The position numbers and the translations under genes are program-made. Positions 1,287 through 61,444 of a stretch of 64,000 nt of DNA are shown here, piece by piece; positions within the stretch are counted from its first letter, which is position 1; each line of letters opens with the position of its first letter. The stretch lies in contig JAIOPO010000001.1 of NCBI GenBank assembly GCA_021413905.1, positions 137,159 through 201,158 of the forward strand, written 5' to 3'. The notes beneath the pieces were generated by a model, which worked only from the letters and a program-made list of their open reading frames with translations, was not told where the DNA came from and did no database searches. The stretch comes from Candidatus Nomurabacteria bacterium (GTDB taxonomy: Bacteria; Patescibacteriota; Minisyncoccia; Phycocordibacterales; UBA9973).

Positions 1287-2984
1287 ATGTCCCACGAAAT
1301 ACAAAAAGTCACATGTCAGAATCACAACATCAGTAAACACTGCCAAGGGGAATTTACGATAGAACCCGATGATTTTGTGTTTTACAAAAAGATAAAAGTG
1401 CCTCCACCGACATTTTGTCCGGAGTGTAGAACCCAAAGAGCTATGGTTTGGAGAAATGAAACAACTTTGTATTCAGGTAATAAATGCAATCTTTGCAATA
1501 AAAGTGTTTTAACTATGTATAATCCAAAATCTGATTTTATTATTTATTGTAATTCATGTTATAGGGGAGACAAATGGGAACCAAGAGATTATGCAATGGA
1601 TTATGATTTTTCAAAATCATTCTTTGAACAATTTGAAGATTTGATGCGCAAAGTTCCTAAGAATGCATTATATAATACGAGTGGAGCTGGATTGATAGTT
1701 GATAGTCCTTATAACAATTGTGTTGGAGGGCTTAAGAATTGCTACATGTGTTTTAATTCAGCTAATTTAGAAGATTGCATGTATTCAAGAGGGGTTACAC
1801 GTTCGAAAGAAGTTTTGGATTCTTATTTTTGTAAAAAAATAGAAAATTGTTATGAGGCAATAAATACATATAATAGTGTGAATTCTTTTTGGATACAAAA
1901 TTCAAATGATATCTTAGATTCAATTTTTTTATATGATTGTGCAAATGTTTCAAATTGTTTAGGTTGTGTTAATTTGAGAAATAAAAGTTTTTGCATATTA
2001 AATGAACAATATTCCAAAGAAGAATATTTTAGTTTTTTAAATAAAATAAAAGGTTCATATTCAAATCTAGAAAATTTTAGAAATCAATTTATTTCATTGA
2101 CAAAAAGTTTACCAAAAAGAGCTAATCAAAATATTAAAACAATGGATTGCGTAGGGGATTATTTAACAGAATGTAAAAATGTTAAACATGGATTTGAAGT
2201 TATGAACTCTGAAGATTGCAAAAGGATATATTTTGGTAGGGATATAAAAGACAGTAGAGGTACTATTGGGTATGGTATAAAATCAGAGCTACTTTTAGAA
2301 TGTGTTTCCACTGGTTATACTTCTAGGGCTATCGGATGCTGGGCTTGTGAATTATCTCAAGATTTAGAATATTGTGTATCGTGTTTTCCTAGTAATAAGA
2401 ATTTAATAGGATGCGATTCTATGAGAAATTCTCAATATTGTATTTTAAATAAACAATATTCAAAAGAAGAATACGAAAAAATAAAAATACATATAAATGA
2501 AGAACTTACAGTATTAGGAGTCTATGGATTAATGTTACCTTCTGAAATTTCTCCTTTTTCTTATAATGAAACATTGGCACAAGATAACTATAATTTATCA
2601 GAAGAAGAAGTTTTAAAAGAAGGTTTTGTGTGGGAAAAAGACATACAAATGACCTCGGGAAAAGAAACCGCGGACATAAATTCTTTAGTAGATAATATCA
2701 ATGAAACTTCAGAAGATATATGTAAAGAAATTTTAGCCTGTATTGATTGTAATAGAAACTATAAAATAACTGAGCAAGAATTTTATTTCTACAAAAACAA
2801 AATTATCCCTGTTCCAAGAAAATGTTTTTATTGTAGACATCAATCAAGAATAGTGAAAAGAGGAAGTTTGAGATTTGATAAAGAAATATGTAATAAATGT
2901 AATATTGATATATATACAAATTTAAATCCCAAAGACGGAGATATAGTTTACTGTGAAAAATGTTATCAGCAAAAAGTTTATTAA
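1287..2984 (+). CDS. Cysteine-rich repeat protein with N- and C-terminal tetra-Cys zinc-ribbon-like modules, function unknown
   Basis: 565 aa, about 50 Cys. N-terminal F.FYKKIKVPPPTFCPECRTQR...C..C...YC.SCY resembles the C-terminal FYFYKNKIIPVPRKCFYCRHQSR...CNKC...YCEKCY. Internal repeats include RNKSFCILNEQYSKEEY and RNSQYCILNKQYSKEEY. Confidence 0.7.
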   Translation: MSHEIQKVTCQNHNISKHCQGEFTIEPDDFVFYKKIKVPPPTFCPECRTQRAMVWRNETTLYSGNKCNLCNKSVLTMYNPKSDFIIYCNSCYRGDKWEPRDYAMDYDFSKSFFEQFEDLMRKVPKNALYNTSGAGLIVDSPYNNCVGGLKNCYMCFNSANLEDCMYSRGVTRSKEVLDSYFCKKIENCYEAINTYNSVNSFWIQNSNDILDSIFLYDCANVSNCLGCVNLRNKSFCILNEQYSKEEYFSFLNKIKGSYSNLENFRNQFISLTKSLPKRANQNIKTMDCVGDYLTECKNVKHGFEVMNSEDCKRIYFGRDIKDSRGTIGYGIKSELLLECVSTGYTSRAIGCWACELSQDLEYCVSCFPSNKNLIGCDSMRNSQYCILNKQYSKEEYEKIKIHINEELTVLGVYGLMLPSEISPFSYNETLAQDNYNLSEEEVLKEGFVWEKDIQMTSGKETADINSLVDNINETSEDICKEILACIDCNRNYKITEQEFYFYKNKIIPVPRKCFYCRHQSRIVKRGSLRFDKEICNKCNIDIYTNLNPKDGDIVYCEKCYQQKVY

Positions 2985-6071: not shown

Positions 6072-7880
6072 TTGTATTTTTGGTATAATAAAAAAATGGA
6101 TTCTCACGAATTGCCAAAAAATAAAGATTTGACATATATCGGACTGACGACTTTTCGTGATAAGAAAAATCTTTTTGGTATAAAACGTAAAGACAGAAGA
6201 CAACATGTATATGTATTGGGTAAATCCGGTACCGGTAAATCCGTGCTTCTTTCCAATATGATTGTGCAAAATATCCAAAATGGAGACGGTGTTTGTGTTG
6301 TGGATCCACACGGAGAACTCGTCGAAGGAATATTACAATCCATACCAGAGAATCGCTTGAAAGATGTAGTATATTTTAATCCGGCGGATACGGATTATCA
6401 TATTGGTTTCAATGTATTGGAATTAATAGATCCGAAATACAAACATCTCGTGGCTTCCGGACTCATGGGTATTTTTACTAAAATTTGGGCTAATGCATGG
6501 AGTGCCAGAATGGAATATATTTTAAATAATGCTATTTTGGCATTGCTTGATACTCCGGGTTCCACATTACTCGGTATTCCAAGACTTTTGGTTGATAAAG
6601 ATTATCGTCAAAAGATAATAAATAATTTGAAAGACCCTGTTATCAAAGCTTTTTGGATTCATGAATATGAAGCTTGGCAAGAGAAATTTCGAAATGAAGC
6701 TATTGCACCTATTCAAAACAAAGTCGGACAATTCCTCTCTACATCTATCATTCGTAACGTTGTCGGCCAAGCAAAAAGCACGATAAATATTTTCGACATT
6801 ATGAATGAAAGTAAAATATTTTTGGTGAATGTTTCCAAAGGGCGTATTGGTGAAGATAATTCCGCTTTGCTCGGAGGTATGATAATTACAAAAATACAAC
6901 TCGCCGCGATGGAACGCGTGCGTATACCCGAAGATGACCGTAAAGATTTTTATTTATATGTGGACGAATTCCAAAATTTTGTGACGGATTCTTTCGCAAG
7001 TATTCTTTCTGAAGCTCGTAAATATCGCCTCAATCTGACTGTCGCTCATCAATACACAGCACAACTCGTCACAGACAATGGTTCTGCTGTGCGTGATGCT
7101 GTTTTTGGTAACGTCGGAACAATGATTATTTTTCGTGTCGGTGCAGACGACGCTGGCTTTTTAGAAAAAGAATTTGAACCTGAATTCACACCTCAAGATA
7201 TTGTGAATTTACCAAACTATAAAATATATTTGCGTTTAATGATAGACGGAGTGACTTCCAGACCATTTTCCGCAAAAACATTGCCACCAATAATAAAAAA
7301 TCCAGATCCAAAAATAGAGCAATCTGTAATAGATTCTTCTCGTGCATTGTATTGTTTACCAAAAGATGTGGTAGAAAGAGAAATCAATAATTGGAGTGGT
7401 ATGTCTTTGGGAGACAATGAAAATGGAAATATGGAAAAATTCCCGGCTGTTTGTTCTATTTGTAAAAAAGAAACTTTTGTCCCATTCCAACCACAACCGG
7501 GCAGACCTGTGTATTGTAAAGATTGCATAGCAAAAATGAAATCCGGTGAGTTAAAGCCATTGAGTGGTTCTATGAATCAAATAAAACAAGATGAAAGTAA
7601 ATTTTATCAACCCTTAGTTGATTTAGGTATAGAATTTAGTGATAAAGGTAATGCAAATACTAATAATATCAAACCAAAAAATAATAGTGTTATTTCTTCT
7701 GTAAAAAATATATTCAACAAAAATCAGAATTCAAATACATTGAAACCTCCGATGAATAAGAATATAAATAATTTCAATAAATTTAAAAATCCTGCTCCTG
7801 TCATAAAAAAGCCAGAAATAAAAAAAGAAACCTGTCATAAAAAAGCCAGAAATAAAAAAAGAAAATGTTGCTTTGCGTGA
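6072..7880 (+). CDS. Soluble VirD4/TraD/TrwB-like (T4CP family, FtsK-HerA superfamily) P-loop ATPase, paralog 1; reading frame broken near 3' end
   Basis: Walker A VLGKSGTGKS, then VVDPHGEL (compare TrwB GATGTGKS...DPNGD). Walker B FYLYVDEFQN. LTVAHQYTAQL fits the T4CP QxxxQL motif. No N-terminal TM segment. C-terminal CxxC...CxxC zinc ribbon and K/N/P-rich tail. Confidence 0.8.
   Translation: MYFWYNKKMDSHELPKNKDLTYIGLTTFRDKKNLFGIKRKDRRQHVYVLGKSGTGKSVLLSNMIVQNIQNGDGVCVVDPHGELVEGILQSIPENRLKDVVYFNPADTDYHIGFNVLELIDPKYKHLVASGLMGIFTKIWANAWSARMEYILNNAILALLDTPGSTLLGIPRLLVDKDYRQKIINNLKDPVIKAFWIHEYEAWQEKFRNEAIAPIQNKVGQFLSTSIIRNVVGQAKSTINIFDIMNESKIFLVNVSKGRIGEDNSALLGGMIITKIQLAAMERVRIPEDDRKDFYLYVDEFQNFVTDSFASILSEARKYRLNLTVAHQYTAQLVTDNGSAVRDAVFGNVGTMIIFRVGADDAGFLEKEFEPEFTPQDIVNLPNYKIYLRLMIDGVTSRPFSAKTLPPIIKNPDPKIEQSVIDSSRALYCLPKDVVEREINNWSGMSLGDNENGNMEKFPAVCSICKKETFVPFQPQPGRPVYCKDCIAKMKSGELKPLSGSMNQIKQDESKFYQPLVDLGIEFSDKGNANTNNIKPKNNSVISSVKNIFNKNQNSNTLKPPMNKNINNFNKFKNPAPVIKKPEIKKETCHKKARNKKRKCCFA
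7797..7864 (+). repeat. Perfect 34-bp tandem duplication (2 copies) causing +1 frameshift
   Basis: cctgtcataaaaaagccagaaataaaaaaagaaa at 7797-7830 is repeated exactly at 7831-7864. 34 is not divisible by 3. Removing one copy fuses ORF 6072.. in frame with ORF 7873..8220. Confidence 0.9.
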
Positions 7881-8220
7881 TATTTTAAATAAAACTTTGA
7901 CTGAAAATAAAACTCTTGAAATAAAAAAAGAAGAACCTAAAGTTATAGAAATTCCAAAACCTGTACCACCGGCAATATCTTTAAATGAATTGAAACCTCA
8001 AAATACAACTGTAATAAATTCAAATGACCGTTCAGCCGGAGCAGACAAAATGAATGCTTTGAAAAATTTAATTACAGAGAAAACTGAACAAAAGAAAACA
8101 GAAATGCCTGCACCCACACCTTCTGTATCTGCGACACCAAAACCTGTTATGAATGATGTCGTCCCAAAACCACCTATCAAAGAAGTCCCCGAAGAAGTTT
8201 TAAAAGGATTATTGGAATAA
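7873..8220 (+). pseudogene. Probable C-terminal continuation (about 118 aa, K/P/T-rich low-complexity tail) of ATPase paralog 1, displaced by the 34-bp duplication
   Basis: With one repeat copy deleted the upstream ORF reads ...PEIKKENVALRDILNKTL..., giving an approximately 704-aa protein. Composition continues the lysine/proline-rich tail. Confidence 0.6.
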
Positions 8221-8225
8221 ATTAT

Positions 8226-8435
8226 ATGGATATAAAAATTAAAATTTTAGAAAACAAAATTAGTATAGATGAAGTAAAAAAACTTGCTGATTTTTGGTAT
8301 GGAACGATGATAAAAGGAGCCGTGGACATCGAAAATGGTAGAGTCGCATTAGGTAATCGTTCTAGAAACATAGTAAATCAAGAAGTTACCCAAACAGCAA
8401 CTCAGATTATTCATAAATTTATTGATTTAAAGTAA
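8226..8435 (+). CDS. Small hypothetical protein (69 aa)
   Basis: ORF with a 5-nt gap after the upstream ORF. Sequence LADFWYGTMIKGAVDIENGRVALGNRSRNIVNQ is vaguely reminiscent of small CPR-restricted DUF families. No confident assignment. Confidence 0.4.
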   Translation: MDIKIKILENKISIDEVKKLADFWYGTMIKGAVDIENGRVALGNRSRNIVNQEVTQTATQIIHKFIDLK

Positions 8436-8436
8436 T

Positions 8437-8733
8437 ATGGAAAAAAATGCACTTTTTTATATGGCGAATTTGTATCCGGAAATAGGAAGACTTTTTTCAT
8501 TTTATGATTCCGGAAAGATTGAAGCTGTGCAAAATGCTCAAAAAAGATCTTTGGATATTGTCGATAAAATATTATCTTTTAATGAAGAAATAAAACCAGC
8601 CGGAAGGGAAGAATGGAATGTTATAAGAAATTTTATTTTAGCTTTTGATAAATTGGATAGTGAAGAAAGAAATATTTTAGAAAAATACGCAGAACCTTTT
8701 TCTTATAAATTTATGAATCAATATACATCTTAA
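8437..8733 (+). CDS. Small hypothetical protein (98 aa)
   Basis: ORF beginning 1 nt after the previous stop. Overlaps the convergent rsmE end by 4 nt. No recognisable motifs. Confidence 0.4.
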   Translation: MEKNALFYMANLYPEIGRLFSFYDSGKIEAVQNAQKRSLDIVDKILSFNEEIKPAGREEWNVIRNFILAFDKLDSEERNILEKYAEPFSYKFMNQYTS

Positions 8734-9462: not shown

Positions 9463-10950
9463 TTGAGAAAAGTGTCAATTTGTAGTAAAATTAAAACAAT
9501 GTCATTAAAACCAAATCGAGTTCAAATAATCAAATATGCGCCACCACCACCGGAATTACCCGTATATGGCAAAATAAAACCTGAAGAAGTTTCTTTTATT
9601 GGGCGGACAAATTATGTCGCAGCTCTCGAAGAAAAGAAATTTATTTTTGGAATAAAACGTATCGACAGACGAAGACATTTATATATTGTCGGTAAATCAG
9701 GAGTAGGTAAATCAAAATTACAAGAATTAATGATTCGCCAAGACATAGCTTATGGCTATGGTGTCTGTGTTATAGATCCGCACGGAGAATTGATAGATGA
9801 TATTTTGGAATTTGTTCCGGAGAATCGCATTGAAGATGTTTGTATTATCGACCCGAGCGATGTGGATTTTCCTGTTTCTTTTAATCCTTTGGCAAATATT
9901 GATCCAGGGTTTAAACATCAGCTCACTCAAGGTTTGATTGAAGTTTTGAAAAAGCAATTCGGTTCAAACTGGACACCGCGTCTAGAACACGTATTTCGTT
10001 TTACTGTGCTTGCTTTGCTCGACTATCCATATGCCACAATGCGCGGAATGATTTCAATGTTGACCGACAGAAATTATAGACAAAAAGTAGTCGAATATAT
10101 CGAAGATGATATGGTTAAAAGATTCTGGGCTATAGAATTCGCTGATTGGTCTGAAAAATTCGACACAGATGCCATCATTCCGCTCGTGAATAAACTCGGA
10201 CAATTCCTCTCAGACCCTATGCTTCGCAATATTTTCGGTCAAATAGAAAACAAAGTTGATTTGGAAAAATTAATGAATGAACAAAAAATAATTTTCATTA
10301 ATTTGTCAAAAGGGCGTATCGGAGAAGAAAATGCTTCTTTCTTTGGAGCGATGTTTATCACAAAAATAAAACAAGCCGGTATGGCTCGTGCAAAACTTGC
10401 CAAAGAAGATAGACATGATTTTTATTTATATGTGGATGAGTTTCAGAATTTGGTGACAGACACATTTGAAAACATTTTATCTGAAGCTCGTAAATATGGT
10501 TTGAATCTGACTGTGGCGCACCAATACGTGAGTCAACTTTTGCCGAAAGTGCAACAAGCTGTGATGGGTAATGTAGGCTCTATTATCACATTTCGTGTCG
10601 GTGGTGATGATGCAGTAAAATTAAAACCTGAATATGAACCTATTTTCGGAGTGAAAGATATGATAAATCTGGGAGTGGGAGAATTTTATATCAAAATGAC
10701 GATTGATGGCGAGAGTTATGATCCTTTTTCCGCAGAGACTTTGAAAGTTTTACCACCGACACATCCTTCATATAGAGAGCGCATTGTGGAAGCTTCTCGC
10801 AGGAAATACGCAATGCCAGCCGAAGACGTGAAGCGTGTTTATGAACAAGAAGAATCAATGATTGTCCGTAGCGCAAAAGAAAAGTCAGCAATCGTTAGCG
10901 ATAAGATTGAAGATAAAAAAACTGAAGAAGATATCAGTCCGTTAATATAA
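9463..10950 (+). CDS. Soluble VirD4/TraD/TrwB-like (T4CP family) P-loop ATPase, paralog 2
   Basis: 495 aa. IVGKSGVGKS, VIDPHGEL, FYLYVDEFQN, LTVAHQYVSQL. About 50% identical to paralog 1 over the ATPase core with the same motif order. No TM segment. Confidence 0.8.
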   Translation: MRKVSICSKIKTMSLKPNRVQIIKYAPPPPELPVYGKIKPEEVSFIGRTNYVAALEEKKFIFGIKRIDRRRHLYIVGKSGVGKSKLQELMIRQDIAYGYGVCVIDPHGELIDDILEFVPENRIEDVCIIDPSDVDFPVSFNPLANIDPGFKHQLTQGLIEVLKKQFGSNWTPRLEHVFRFTVLALLDYPYATMRGMISMLTDRNYRQKVVEYIEDDMVKRFWAIEFADWSEKFDTDAIIPLVNKLGQFLSDPMLRNIFGQIENKVDLEKLMNEQKIIFINLSKGRIGEENASFFGAMFITKIKQAGMARAKLAKEDRHDFYLYVDEFQNLVTDTFENILSEARKYGLNLTVAHQYVSQLLPKVQQAVMGNVGSIITFRVGGDDAVKLKPEYEPIFGVKDMINLGVGEFYIKMTIDGESYDPFSAETLKVLPPTHPSYRERIVEASRRKYAMPAEDVKRVYEQEESMIVRSAKEKSAIVSDKIEDKKTEEDISPLI

Positions 10951-47671: not shown

Positions 47672-47742
47672 TGGGGTATCGTCTAATGGTAGGACAGAGG
47701 CCTTTGAAGCCTTTAATCGTGGTTCGAATCCATGTACCCCAG
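47672..47742 (+). tRNA. tRNA-Gln (anticodon UUG)
   Basis: Cloverleaf traced by hand: acceptor tggggta/tacccca, D-arm, anticodon stem gaggc/gcctt with loop ctTTGaa, T-loop ttcgaat. CCA not encoded. Confidence 0.8.
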
Positions 47743-47750
47743 CTCTACAT

Positions 47751-58593: not shown

Positions 58594-58677
58594 GCCGGGA
58601 TGGCGGAATTGGTAGACGCAAACGACTCAAAATCGTTCGAGGGCAACTTCATGAGAGTTCAAGTCTCTCTCCCGGCA
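58594..58677 (+). tRNA. tRNA-Leu (anticodon CAA), class II with long variable arm
   Basis: Acceptor gccggga/tcccggc, anticodon stem aacga/tcgtt with loop ctCAAaa, long variable arm, T-loop ttcaagt. murA ATG starts 4 nt downstream. Confidence 0.8.
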
Positions 58678-58681
58678 CAAA

Positions 58682-61370: not shown

Positions 61371-61444
61371 TGGCGGGCGATGAGGGAATCGAACCCCCAC
61401 CAAAGGTTTTGGAGACCTTCGTTCTACCACTAAACTAATCGCCC
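61371..61444 (-). tRNA. tRNA-Trp (anticodon CCA), 3' CCA encoded
   Basis: Reverse complement reads gggcgat...ctCCAaa anticodon loop...atcgccc-g-cca. Standard 7/4/5/5 stems. Confidence 0.85.

What the first reader, a model, noticed from the sequence alone, without database searches (positions are those of the whole stretch)
7797..7864. Perfect 34-bp tandem duplication frameshifts the C-terminal tail of T4CP-like paralog 1
The 34-nt unit cctgtcataaaaaagccagaaataaaaaaagaaa occurs twice in direct tandem (7797-7830 and 7831-7864) with no mismatch. 34 is not a multiple of 3, so the ORF 6072.. terminates 16 nt later (..KKETCHKKARNKKRKCCFA*). Deleting one copy joins it in frame to ORF 7873..8220 (..PEIKKENVALRDILNKTL..), restoring an approximately 704-aa protein with a continuous K/P/T-rich tail. 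This could be a very recent pseudogenising event, a reversible slippage-type on/off switch in a homopolymer-rich low-complexity region, or an assembly artefact. The ATPase core and zinc ribbon remain intact either way, so the truncated product could still be functional but tail-less.
Basis: seen in the sequence. Interest (0 to 1): 0.6.

Follow-up and report, generated by a model that had tools for sequence, protein, structure and literature searches.

The report
Frameshifting 34-bp duplication splits ATPase gene
A perfect 34-base tandem duplication cuts a highly conserved ATPase gene of an uncultured Nomurabacteria bacterium into two reading frames; it is either a very recent disabling mutation or an assembly error, and nothing points to a programmed switch.

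Summary
CCTGTCATAAAAAAGCCAGAAATAAAAAAAGAAA occurs twice, head to tail, at 7797-7830 and 7831-7864. It is the only exact tandem repeat of 20 bp or more in the window. Removing one copy fuses ORF 6072/6096..7880 with ORF 7873..8220 into one protein (704 aa from TTG 6072, 696 aa from ATG 6096). All 119 nearest homologues and 11 of 11 related genomes encode a single ORF, and all but one homologue carry the terminal motif KEVPEDVLRKILE. In this window the motif (KEVPEEVLKGLLE) lies in the +1 frame. The split is therefore derived and unique, not a conserved two-gene arrangement. It is also very young or not real: the copies are identical, the tail frame has no stop, and the repaired protein keeps 299 of 299 columns invariant among 77 homologues, 12 of them downstream of the break. 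No near-identical strain and no reads were available, so a real mutation (about 0.5) cannot be separated from an in-silico duplication (about 0.35). A programmed switch or slippage rescue is unlikely (under 0.1). The unit is long, there are only two copies, no relative shows the split, and the A-runs are only 6-7 long. The lost tail carries four conserved blocks, so a functional tail-less product is doubtful. This is an ordinary finding; its main value is as an annotation caveat.

The parts
7797..7830 (+). Copy 1 of the 34-nt unit. It is read in the ancestral frame as PVIKKPEIKKE.
7831..7864 (+). Copy 2 of the 34-nt unit, identical to copy 1. In the upstream gene's frame it is read out of register; in the tail frame it again reads PVIKKPEIKKE.
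6096..7880 (+). Truncated gene as annotated (594 aa, NCBI MCE9585151.1). The mechanical ORF starts at TTG 6072 (602 aa). It encodes a soluble T4CP-like P-loop ATPase plus a zinc ribbon and ends in 16 aberrant residues.
6189..7142 (+). TrwB/VirD4-type ATPase domain (PF10412, residues 40-357 of the 602-aa ORF). Walker A GKSGTGKS is at 6219-6242 and YLYVDEFQ at 6951-6974.
7434..7541 (+). CxxC-x17-CxxC treble-clef zinc ribbon (PF23477, TIGR04272). The cysteines span 7452-7526.
7830..7880 (+). Out-of-frame read-through TCHKKARNKKRKCCFA followed by the TGA stop, created by the duplication.
7822..8220 (+). Displaced tail frame (+1 relative to the ATPase frame), open for 133 codons. The first canonical start is TTG 7873 (115-aa ORF). 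Conserved blocks are ENVALRDILNKTLTENK (7861-7911), PPAISLNELK (7966-7995), DRSAGADKMNALKNLI (8026-8073) and KEVPEEVLKGLLE (8179-8217).
7820..7860 (+). Three A-runs: A7 at 7820-7826, A6 at 7839-7844 and A7 at 7854-7860. Loss of one A from any of them, in DNA or in mRNA, would restore a 707-aa full-length product.
9463..10950 (+). Paralogue 2 (495 aa). It has the same ATPase fold but no zinc ribbon and no tail, so it cannot supply the lost tail.

Best explanation
This is a genuine, very recent 34-bp tandem duplication in the sequenced population. It arose in the low-complexity, A-rich linker of a gene that is ancestrally one ORF of about 700 aa. Because 34 = 33 + 1, the ribosome leaves the ancestral frame at 7830 and stops at 7878-7880. 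The product keeps the ATPase core and zinc ribbon but loses the last 119 ancestral residues, which carry four conserved short helical motifs including the C-terminal KEVPEEVLKGLLE. The tail most likely mediates partner binding (inferred), so the allele is probably a null or hypomorph, that is, a nascent pseudogene. The two 34-bp copies are perfect direct repeats, so precise loss of one copy by replication slippage could revert it. That would be an incidental property of any tandem duplication, not a designed switch. Shown: the anatomy, the frame restoration, the uniqueness of the split and the absence of decay. Inferred: that the duplication exists in the cells, how it arose, and what it does to function.
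For: The repeat is perfect and far beyond chance. One copy less gives a single ORF. The 119 nearest homologues are 650-803 aa single proteins, and all but one (P0092, on a 3.1-kb contig) carry the ..EVPEDVLRKILE end motif. All 11 related GTDB genomes with a full-length match have one ORF. Among 13 loci with this tail type, only the window has the motif in another frame. The duplicated segment lies in the least conserved, length-variable linker (109-171 aa between ribbon and first tail block). Orthologues carry in-frame tandem repeats of period 12-15 in their tails, and the 15-mer GAAATAAAAAAAGAA occurs three times locally, so the region is prone to indels. The rest of the window looks well assembled: it is 94% coding, and 47 ORFs of at least 150 aa stay open across 310 A/T runs of 6 or more. 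In Ca. Southlakia epibionticum the t4cp homologue was reported as not essential, so loss can be tolerated (PMC12102498). The neighbouring DUF5674 gene also carries an indel, an in-frame 47-aa deletion relative to L007, which hints at indel-type erosion in this stretch.
Against: No reads and no near-identical strain could be found, so the duplication is not independently confirmed. The gene is extremely constrained (299 invariant columns in 77 homologues), which makes a fixed knock-out unlikely a priori. Zero decay (299 of 299 invariant columns kept, 12 of 12 in the displaced tail; tail frame open, chance 2e-4) fits an artefact as well as a recent event. The blunt junction without microhomology is not the classic signature of slipped-strand duplication. 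Many apparent pseudogenes in public assemblies are technical (PMC11017572).
Confidence: 0.5

Rival explanations
1. Assembly, scaffolding or gap-closing artefact. The organism has one copy and an intact 696-aa gene, and the second copy was created in silico, for example by joining two contig ends without trimming their overlap or by a gap closer in a low-complexity, low-coverage stretch.
For: The duplication is blunt-ended and perfect. There is no decay on either side of the break (299 of 299 invariant columns kept). The gene is otherwise universally intact in relatives. The site is A-rich and low-complexity. Many purported pseudogenes are assembly errors (PMC11017572). From my own knowledge, untrimmed k-1 overlaps (k = 35) and gap closers produce exactly this kind of tandem duplicate.
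Against: It is the only such repeat in 64 kb. The window is otherwise clean. The 34-mer is not repeated elsewhere in the window, so there is no graph ambiguity to mis-resolve. From my own knowledge, 34 or 35 is not a default overlap of the commonly used metagenome assemblers. There are no Ns or other join marks.
Confidence: 0.35
2. Functional switching or recoding. Either the locus toggles between one and two copies (OFF/ON, as in pneumococcal cap3A), or slippage on the A-runs yields both a tail-less and a full-length isoform from the two-copy allele (as in C. rodentium tssM1).
For: Perfect 34-bp direct repeats can be lost precisely. Loss of one A in any of three A-runs (7820-26, 7839-44, 7854-60) restores a 707-aa product. 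The tail frame is fully intact. Both mechanisms have precedents (PMC11163986; PMC4256274).
Against: No relative shows the split, a duplication at this site or a long A-run here, so nothing is conserved. There are only two copies of a long unit, and no repeat tract favours re-formation. The A-runs are 6-7 nt, whereas tssM1 uses A11 and bacterial RNA polymerase is reported to need more than 7 A (PMC6260861). The shift needed is +1/-2, not the -1 favoured at A AAA AAG heptamers (the -1 preference is from my own knowledge). The break is near the 3' end, not where contingency loci usually act.
Confidence: 0.07
3. A real in-frame 33-nt (11-aa) duplication plus a single-base sequencing error, so that the true protein is intact with a harmless repeat in its linker.
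For: In-frame length variation and in-frame tandem repeats are common in this linker among orthologues.
Against: To give the observed perfect 2 x 34 pattern, the extra base must sit exactly in the short AAA run at the copy junction (7828-7830), which follows from the sequence. An error in any A6 or A7 run would leave the copies unequal. All 310 other A/T runs of 6 or more lie in ORFs that remain open, so the homopolymer error rate is about 1% per run or less.
Confidence: 0.02
4. A conserved two-gene arrangement in which the tail is a separate small protein.
For: ORF 7873..8220 has a TTG start and is open.
Against: The arrangement is not seen in any of 119 homologues or 12 related loci. The first tail block ENVALRD begins at 7861, upstream of the TTG at 7873. 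No such protein is in the 15-billion-sequence collection.
Confidence: 0.01

Closest known systems
Frameshift pseudogenes and spurious pseudogenes in bacterial assemblies (Cooley & Wright 2024, PMC11017572)
   Same: One conserved gene appears as two adjacent ORFs in different frames because of a small insertion. Whether the cause is biological or technical depends on read support.
   Different: The lesion here is a clean 34-bp tandem duplication, not a homopolymer indel or internal stop, and the surrounding 64 kb shows no other broken gene.
Streptococcus pneumoniae cap3A tandem-duplication phase variation (Waite et al. 2001, as summarised in PMC11163986); Ralstonia phcA duplications (cited in bioRxiv 10.1101/2023.04.27.538605)
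   Same: A perfect tandem duplication inside an ORF switches the product off, and precise loss of one copy restores it.
   Different: In those systems many independent duplications and reversions were observed in culture. Here there is a single instance, no population data and no recurrence in relatives, and the break removes only the C-terminal tail.
Citrobacter rodentium tssM1 transcriptional frameshifting (PMC4256274)
   Same: A secretion-related ATPase or membrane-complex gene is interrupted before a functionally required C-terminal part. A-runs lie just upstream of the stop, and a 1-nt change in the mRNA restores the frame.
   Different: tssM1 has A11, shifts about 20% of the time, and the arrangement is conserved in Yersinia. 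Here the runs are A6-A7, the arrangement is unique to this genome, and the frameshift is caused by a duplication.
Type IV coupling proteins (VirD4/TraD/TrwB)
   Same: The P-loop ATPase domain matches PF10412, PF02534 and PF12696 above Pfam cut-offs.
   Different: There is no N-terminal transmembrane anchor. The protein scores far below the NCBIfam equivalog cut-offs (54 against 366 bits). It carries an extra CxxC-x17-CxxC ribbon and a disordered tail. It lies between dnaK and dnaJ with a second paralogue, not beside virB4 or a relaxase. PMC12102498 reports about two such homologues per Patescibacteria genome, rarely near virB4 and possibly exapted.
Simple-sequence-repeat contingency loci
   Same: A change in repeat copy number alters the reading frame.
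   Different: Contingency loci use many copies of 1-9-nt units, usually near the 5' end or in the promoter. Here there are two copies of a 34-nt unit near the 3' end.

Membership tests
Type IV coupling protein (VirD4/TraD/TrwB) | TrwB/VirD4-type P-loop NTPase domain | tested here: met
   PF10412 scores 47.5 bits (cut-off 20.5), PF02534 37 bits (20.1) and PF12696 30.4 bits (22).
Type IV coupling protein (VirD4/TraD/TrwB) | N-terminal transmembrane anchor | tested here: not met
   The Kyte-Doolittle 19-residue maximum is 1.22 and no window exceeds 1.6. Walker A starts at about residue 42.
Type IV coupling protein (VirD4/TraD/TrwB) | Reaches curated equivalog or subfamily score | tested here: not met
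   The best NCBIfam match is TIGR03743 at 54.4 bits against a cut-off of 366.
Type IV coupling protein (VirD4/TraD/TrwB) | Linked to virB4/T4SS genes or a relaxase | tested here: not met
   The gene sits between dnaK and dnaJ in the window and in 11 related loci. No VirB4-sized ATPase appears in the window's ORF list. PMC12102498 reports that only 148 of 5,713 Patescibacteria homologues lie near virB4.
Reversible tandem-duplication switch (cap3A type) | Perfect intragenic tandem duplication that abolishes the normal product | tested here: met
Reversible tandem-duplication switch (cap3A type) | Both states present in a population, with observed reversion | not testable with these tools
   There are no reads. 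No same-species DNA was found in the protein collection or in JGI contigs.
Reversible tandem-duplication switch (cap3A type) | Recurrent independent duplications at the locus | tested here: not met
   None of 119 homologues and none of 12 related loci is split.
Programmed frameshift / transcriptional slippage (tssM1, dnaX type) | Long homopolymer (9-11 or more) or a defined slippery site with a stimulator upstream of the stop | tested here: not met
   The longest A-runs here are 7 nt. tssM1 uses A11, and bacterial RNA polymerase needs more than 7 A. No stimulator was searched for beyond the repeat scan.
Programmed frameshift / transcriptional slippage (tssM1, dnaX type) | Split arrangement conserved in relatives | tested here: not met
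Simple-sequence contingency locus | Tract of many short (1-9 nt) units | tested here: not met
   Period 34, 2.0 copies.
Recent frameshift pseudogene | Orthologues intact, and both halves align to one protein in different frames | tested here: met
Recent frameshift pseudogene | Lesion present in the organism's DNA (read support) | not testable with these tools
   There is no access to reads. The source contig (274,049 bp, protein MCE9585151.1) is not in the position index.

The most novel reading that the evidence does not exclude
The two-copy state is biologically used. Either the population toggles between one and two copies of the 34-mer, attaching or detaching the conserved partner-binding tail, or low-level loss of one A on the A7/A6/A7 runs makes a minor full-length isoform beside a major tail-less one, as in tssM1. 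That would be the first tail-level regulation described for the soluble T4CP-like ATPase that Patescibacteria keep in their dnaK-dnaJ cluster.
Probability: 0.06. Interest if true: 0.5.

Novelty: new member of a known kind. Interest (0 to 1): 0.15.

Why it matters
The main value is as a caveat. If reads confirm the duplication, this genome is a natural tail-less allele of a gene whose function is unknown. That would show that the conserved C-terminal motif is dispensable at least transiently. The comparison also defines the tail itself: a variable linker plus four conserved blocks ending in KEVPEDVLRKILE. This gives a handle for finding the protein's partner.

Tried and rejected
- **Source contig:** exact look-ups of the truncated protein (both starts, and P0001) and of DnaK in the gene-position index found nothing.
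- **Tail as a separate protein:** exact look-up of the tail ORF as its own protein (two possible starts) found nothing.
- **Same-species DNA:** two scans of JGI metagenome contigs gave 0 hits. One used an exact 30-mer across the right junction. The other used a wobble-degenerate pattern for NNFNKFKNPAPVIKKPEIKKE that would match both alleles.
- **GTDB species representatives:** they do not include this genome. The closest relative (L025, 85% aa identity) is a 2-kb fragment cut at residue 334. No one-copy allele exists to compare with.
- **Structure:** an AlphaFold model of the intact orthologue P0008 with a 77-sequence alignment was poor (mean pLDDT 53.9, pTM 0.43). It was used only to note that the tail is mostly disordered with short helices at the conserved blocks. 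No fold search was run on it.
- **Formation mechanism:** inverted repeats and microhomology gave nothing convincing. The junction octamer AAACCTGT recurs at 7957, which is probably chance.
- **Promoter and terminator scan of 7500-8500:** nothing above the shuffled expectation.
- **tRNA and Rfam scans:** nothing near the site.
- **Invalid number:** the 'after masking' figure is an artefact of my mask and should be ignored.
- **Alternative genetic code:** rejected. Reading TGA 7878 as sense only reaches a TAA four codons later (sequence).
- **Target-site duplication or att site:** rejected from my own knowledge. 34 bp in direct tandem with nothing between the copies does not fit.

Full report
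**1. Observation.**
The sequence at 7797-7864 is two identical, adjacent copies of CCTGTCATAAAAAAGCCAGAAATAAAAAAAGAAA. Tandem Repeats Finder reports period 34, 2.0 copies, 100% matches and score 136. The next best array in the 64-kb window scores 64. A direct scan found no other exact tandem run of at least max(period, 20) nt. In 100 shuffles that keep composition in 200-nt blocks, the longest exact run at offsets 12-100 averaged 12.4 ± 1.0 (maximum 15), against 34 observed. The match at period 34 is exactly 34 long, so the duplication is blunt, with no microhomology at its ends. The upstream ORF leaves its ancestral frame at 7830, reads TCHKKARNKKRKCCFA and stops at TGA 7878-7880, 16 nt after copy 2.

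**2. What the gene is.**
- ORF 6072..7880 contains a TrwB/VirD4-type P-loop ATPase domain (PF10412 47.5 bits, PF02534 37 bits, PF12696 30.4 bits, all above cut-off).
- It also contains a CxxC-x17-CxxC treble-clef zinc ribbon (PF23477, TIGR04272).
- It is NCBI protein MCE9585151.1, 594 aa from ATG 6096, from 'Candidatus Nomurabacteria bacterium' on a 274,049-bp contig. DnaK just upstream is MCE9585150.1. ATG 6096 is the start that aligns with the homologue consensus MExxEIPxNKDLTYIGL.
- It is not a canonical coupling protein. It has no hydrophobic segment (Kyte-Doolittle maximum 1.22) and Walker A begins near residue 42. NCBIfam equivalog scores are far below threshold.
- Its gene order is rpsI-grpE-[565-aa Cys-rich protein]-PaaX-like-LMW phosphatase-dnaK-[this gene]-...-[paralogue 2, 9463..10950]-dnaJ. 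The same order is found in 11 related Paceibacteria/Nomurabacteria loci.
- A recent survey found about two VirD4 homologues per Patescibacteria genome, only 148 of 5,713 near virB4. It noted that the homologue was not essential in Ca. Southlakia epibionticum and may be exapted (PMC12102498).

**3. The ancestral state is one ORF.**
Removing one copy gives a single open frame of 704 codons from TTG 6072, or 696 from ATG 6096. I searched 5.8 billion protein clusters with the repaired protein. The only truncated hit was the window's own protein. The other 119 listed hits (66-76% identical) are 650-803 aa and cover 92-100% of the query. All but one (P0092, on a 3.1-kb contig) carry the motif ..(K/R)E(V/I)PEDVL(R/K)K(I/L)LE at or within a few residues of the C-terminus. 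All 11 GTDB species representatives with a full-length match have one continuous ORF ending in that motif. Among 13 loci with this tail type, only the window has the motif in a different frame. More distant Patescibacteria have other tails.

**4. What is lost.**
An alignment of 119 tails shows the following order after the zinc ribbon:
- a conserved segment;
- a poorly conserved linker of variable length (109-171 aa between ribbon and first tail block);
- four conserved blocks: ENxALREILNKTLxENK, PISLxELK, DRSASxEDMNKLKNLI and the terminal KEVPEDVLRKILE, with 80-99% majority-residue frequency in the last.

The duplicated peptide PVIKKPEIKKE lies at the end of the variable linker, immediately before the first block. 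The frameshift disconnects all four blocks. The window's versions are at 7861-7911, 7966-7995, 8026-8073 and 8179-8217. An AlphaFold model of the intact orthologue P0008 was poor overall (pLDDT 53.9). It shows the tail as disordered, with short helices at the conserved blocks. That is consistent with partner-binding motifs, but this is an inference. Paralogue 2 has neither ribbon nor tail. 'Tail-less but functional' is therefore doubtful.

**5. Age.**
The copies are identical. The displaced tail frame is open for 133 codons from 7822. The other two frames have more than ten stops each, and the chance of a 115-codon open frame at this composition is about 2e-4. The repaired protein keeps all 299 columns that are invariant among 77 homologues, including all 12 that lie after the break. 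Neither half shows relaxed constraint. The event is very recent, or not real, or the tail is still expressed.

**6. Real or artefact.**
I could not obtain reads or a near-identical strain.
- The source contig is not in the gene-position index.
- It is not a GTDB representative.
- Two scans of JGI contigs, one of them tolerant of synonymous changes and matching both alleles, gave nothing.
- No protein more than 76% identical over the full length exists in the collection.

Evidence for a real mutation:
- The window is otherwise clean. It is 94% coding with no other split gene evident, and 310 A/T runs of 6 or more lie within 47 ORFs that remain open.
- The linker is prone to indels. Orthologues show in-frame tandem repeats of period 12-15, and a 15-mer is present three times locally.
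- The homologue is dispensable in one cultured relative.
- The neighbouring DUF5674 gene has an in-frame 47-aa deletion.

Evidence for an artefact:
- The junction is blunt and there is no decay.
- The gene is extremely constrained.
- Spurious pseudogenes are documented to be frequent in assemblies (PMC11017572).

I put the real mutation at about 0.5 and the artefact at about 0.35. A variant artefact, a true in-frame 33-nt duplication plus a 1-nt error, would require the error to sit exactly in the short AAA run at the junction, so it is very unlikely.

**7. Switch or recoding.**
Perfect 34-bp direct repeats can be lost precisely, as in the pneumococcal cap3A duplication switch (PMC11163986). 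Loss of one A from any of the runs at 7820-26, 7839-44 or 7854-60 would restore a 707-aa product, which recalls tssM1 (PMC4256274). Several points argue against this:
- Nothing is conserved. No relative has a split, a duplication or a long A-run here.
- There are only two copies of a long unit.
- The runs are A6-A7, against A11 in tssM1. Bacterial RNA polymerase is reported to need more than seven A (PMC6260861).
- The shift required is +1/-2.

I give this less than 0.1.

**8. Verdict.**
The finding is an ordinary frameshift lesion in a public draft genome, either a nascent pseudogene or an assembly error. It matters mainly as an annotation caveat. The gene family itself is more interesting than the duplication: a soluble T4CP-like ATPase pair embedded in the dnaK-dnaJ cluster, with a conserved tail.

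Noticed in passing
window 6096-8220 and 9463-10950; L001-L011: Two soluble T4CP-like ATPase paralogues sit between dnaK and dnaJ. One has a zinc ribbon and a conserved tail; the other has neither. This order (grpE ... dnaK - T4CP-like 1 - variable genes - T4CP-like 2 - dnaJ) recurs in 11 related Paceibacteria/Nomurabacteria loci. The core is extremely conserved (299 invariant columns in 77 homologues). No virB4 is nearby. The function is unknown.
   Followed up: partly
window 8226-8435 (+); L007:15840-16190: The 69-aa DUF5674-like ORF lacks 47 internal residues present in the full-length 116-aa DUF5674 protein of L007 (VALG|...|NRSR). This is a clean in-frame deletion of about 141 bp that removes the core of the domain. 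The Pfam score is 23.5 bits, below the cut-off of 27.
   Followed up: partly
window 1287-2984 (+); L001, L004-L007, L010: A 565-aa cysteine-rich protein with no Pfam match has 1-4 tandem paralogues flanking or lying between the two T4CP-like genes in related loci. The window has one copy.
   Followed up: no
window 7815-7829, 7849-7863, 7917-7931: The 15-mer GAAATAAAAAAAGAA (EIKKE) occurs three times. Two occurrences are in the duplicated unit and one is 68 nt downstream in the tail, so the ancestral sequence already held a short direct repeat.
   Followed up: yes
L012-L080: More distant Patescibacteria orthologues keep the ATPase and zinc ribbon but end in other tail types, for example ..KPGETIKF(D) or ..VDLxELRxxLKEAL... 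The KEVPEDVLRKILE tail is specific to one clade.
   Followed up: partly
window 47672-47743, 58594-58678, 61371-61444: Three tRNA genes (Gln-TTG, Leu-CAA, Trp-CCA) are the only Rfam or ARAGORN hits in the window. A GC-skew turn near 38-40 kb suggests a replication origin or terminus.
   Followed up: no
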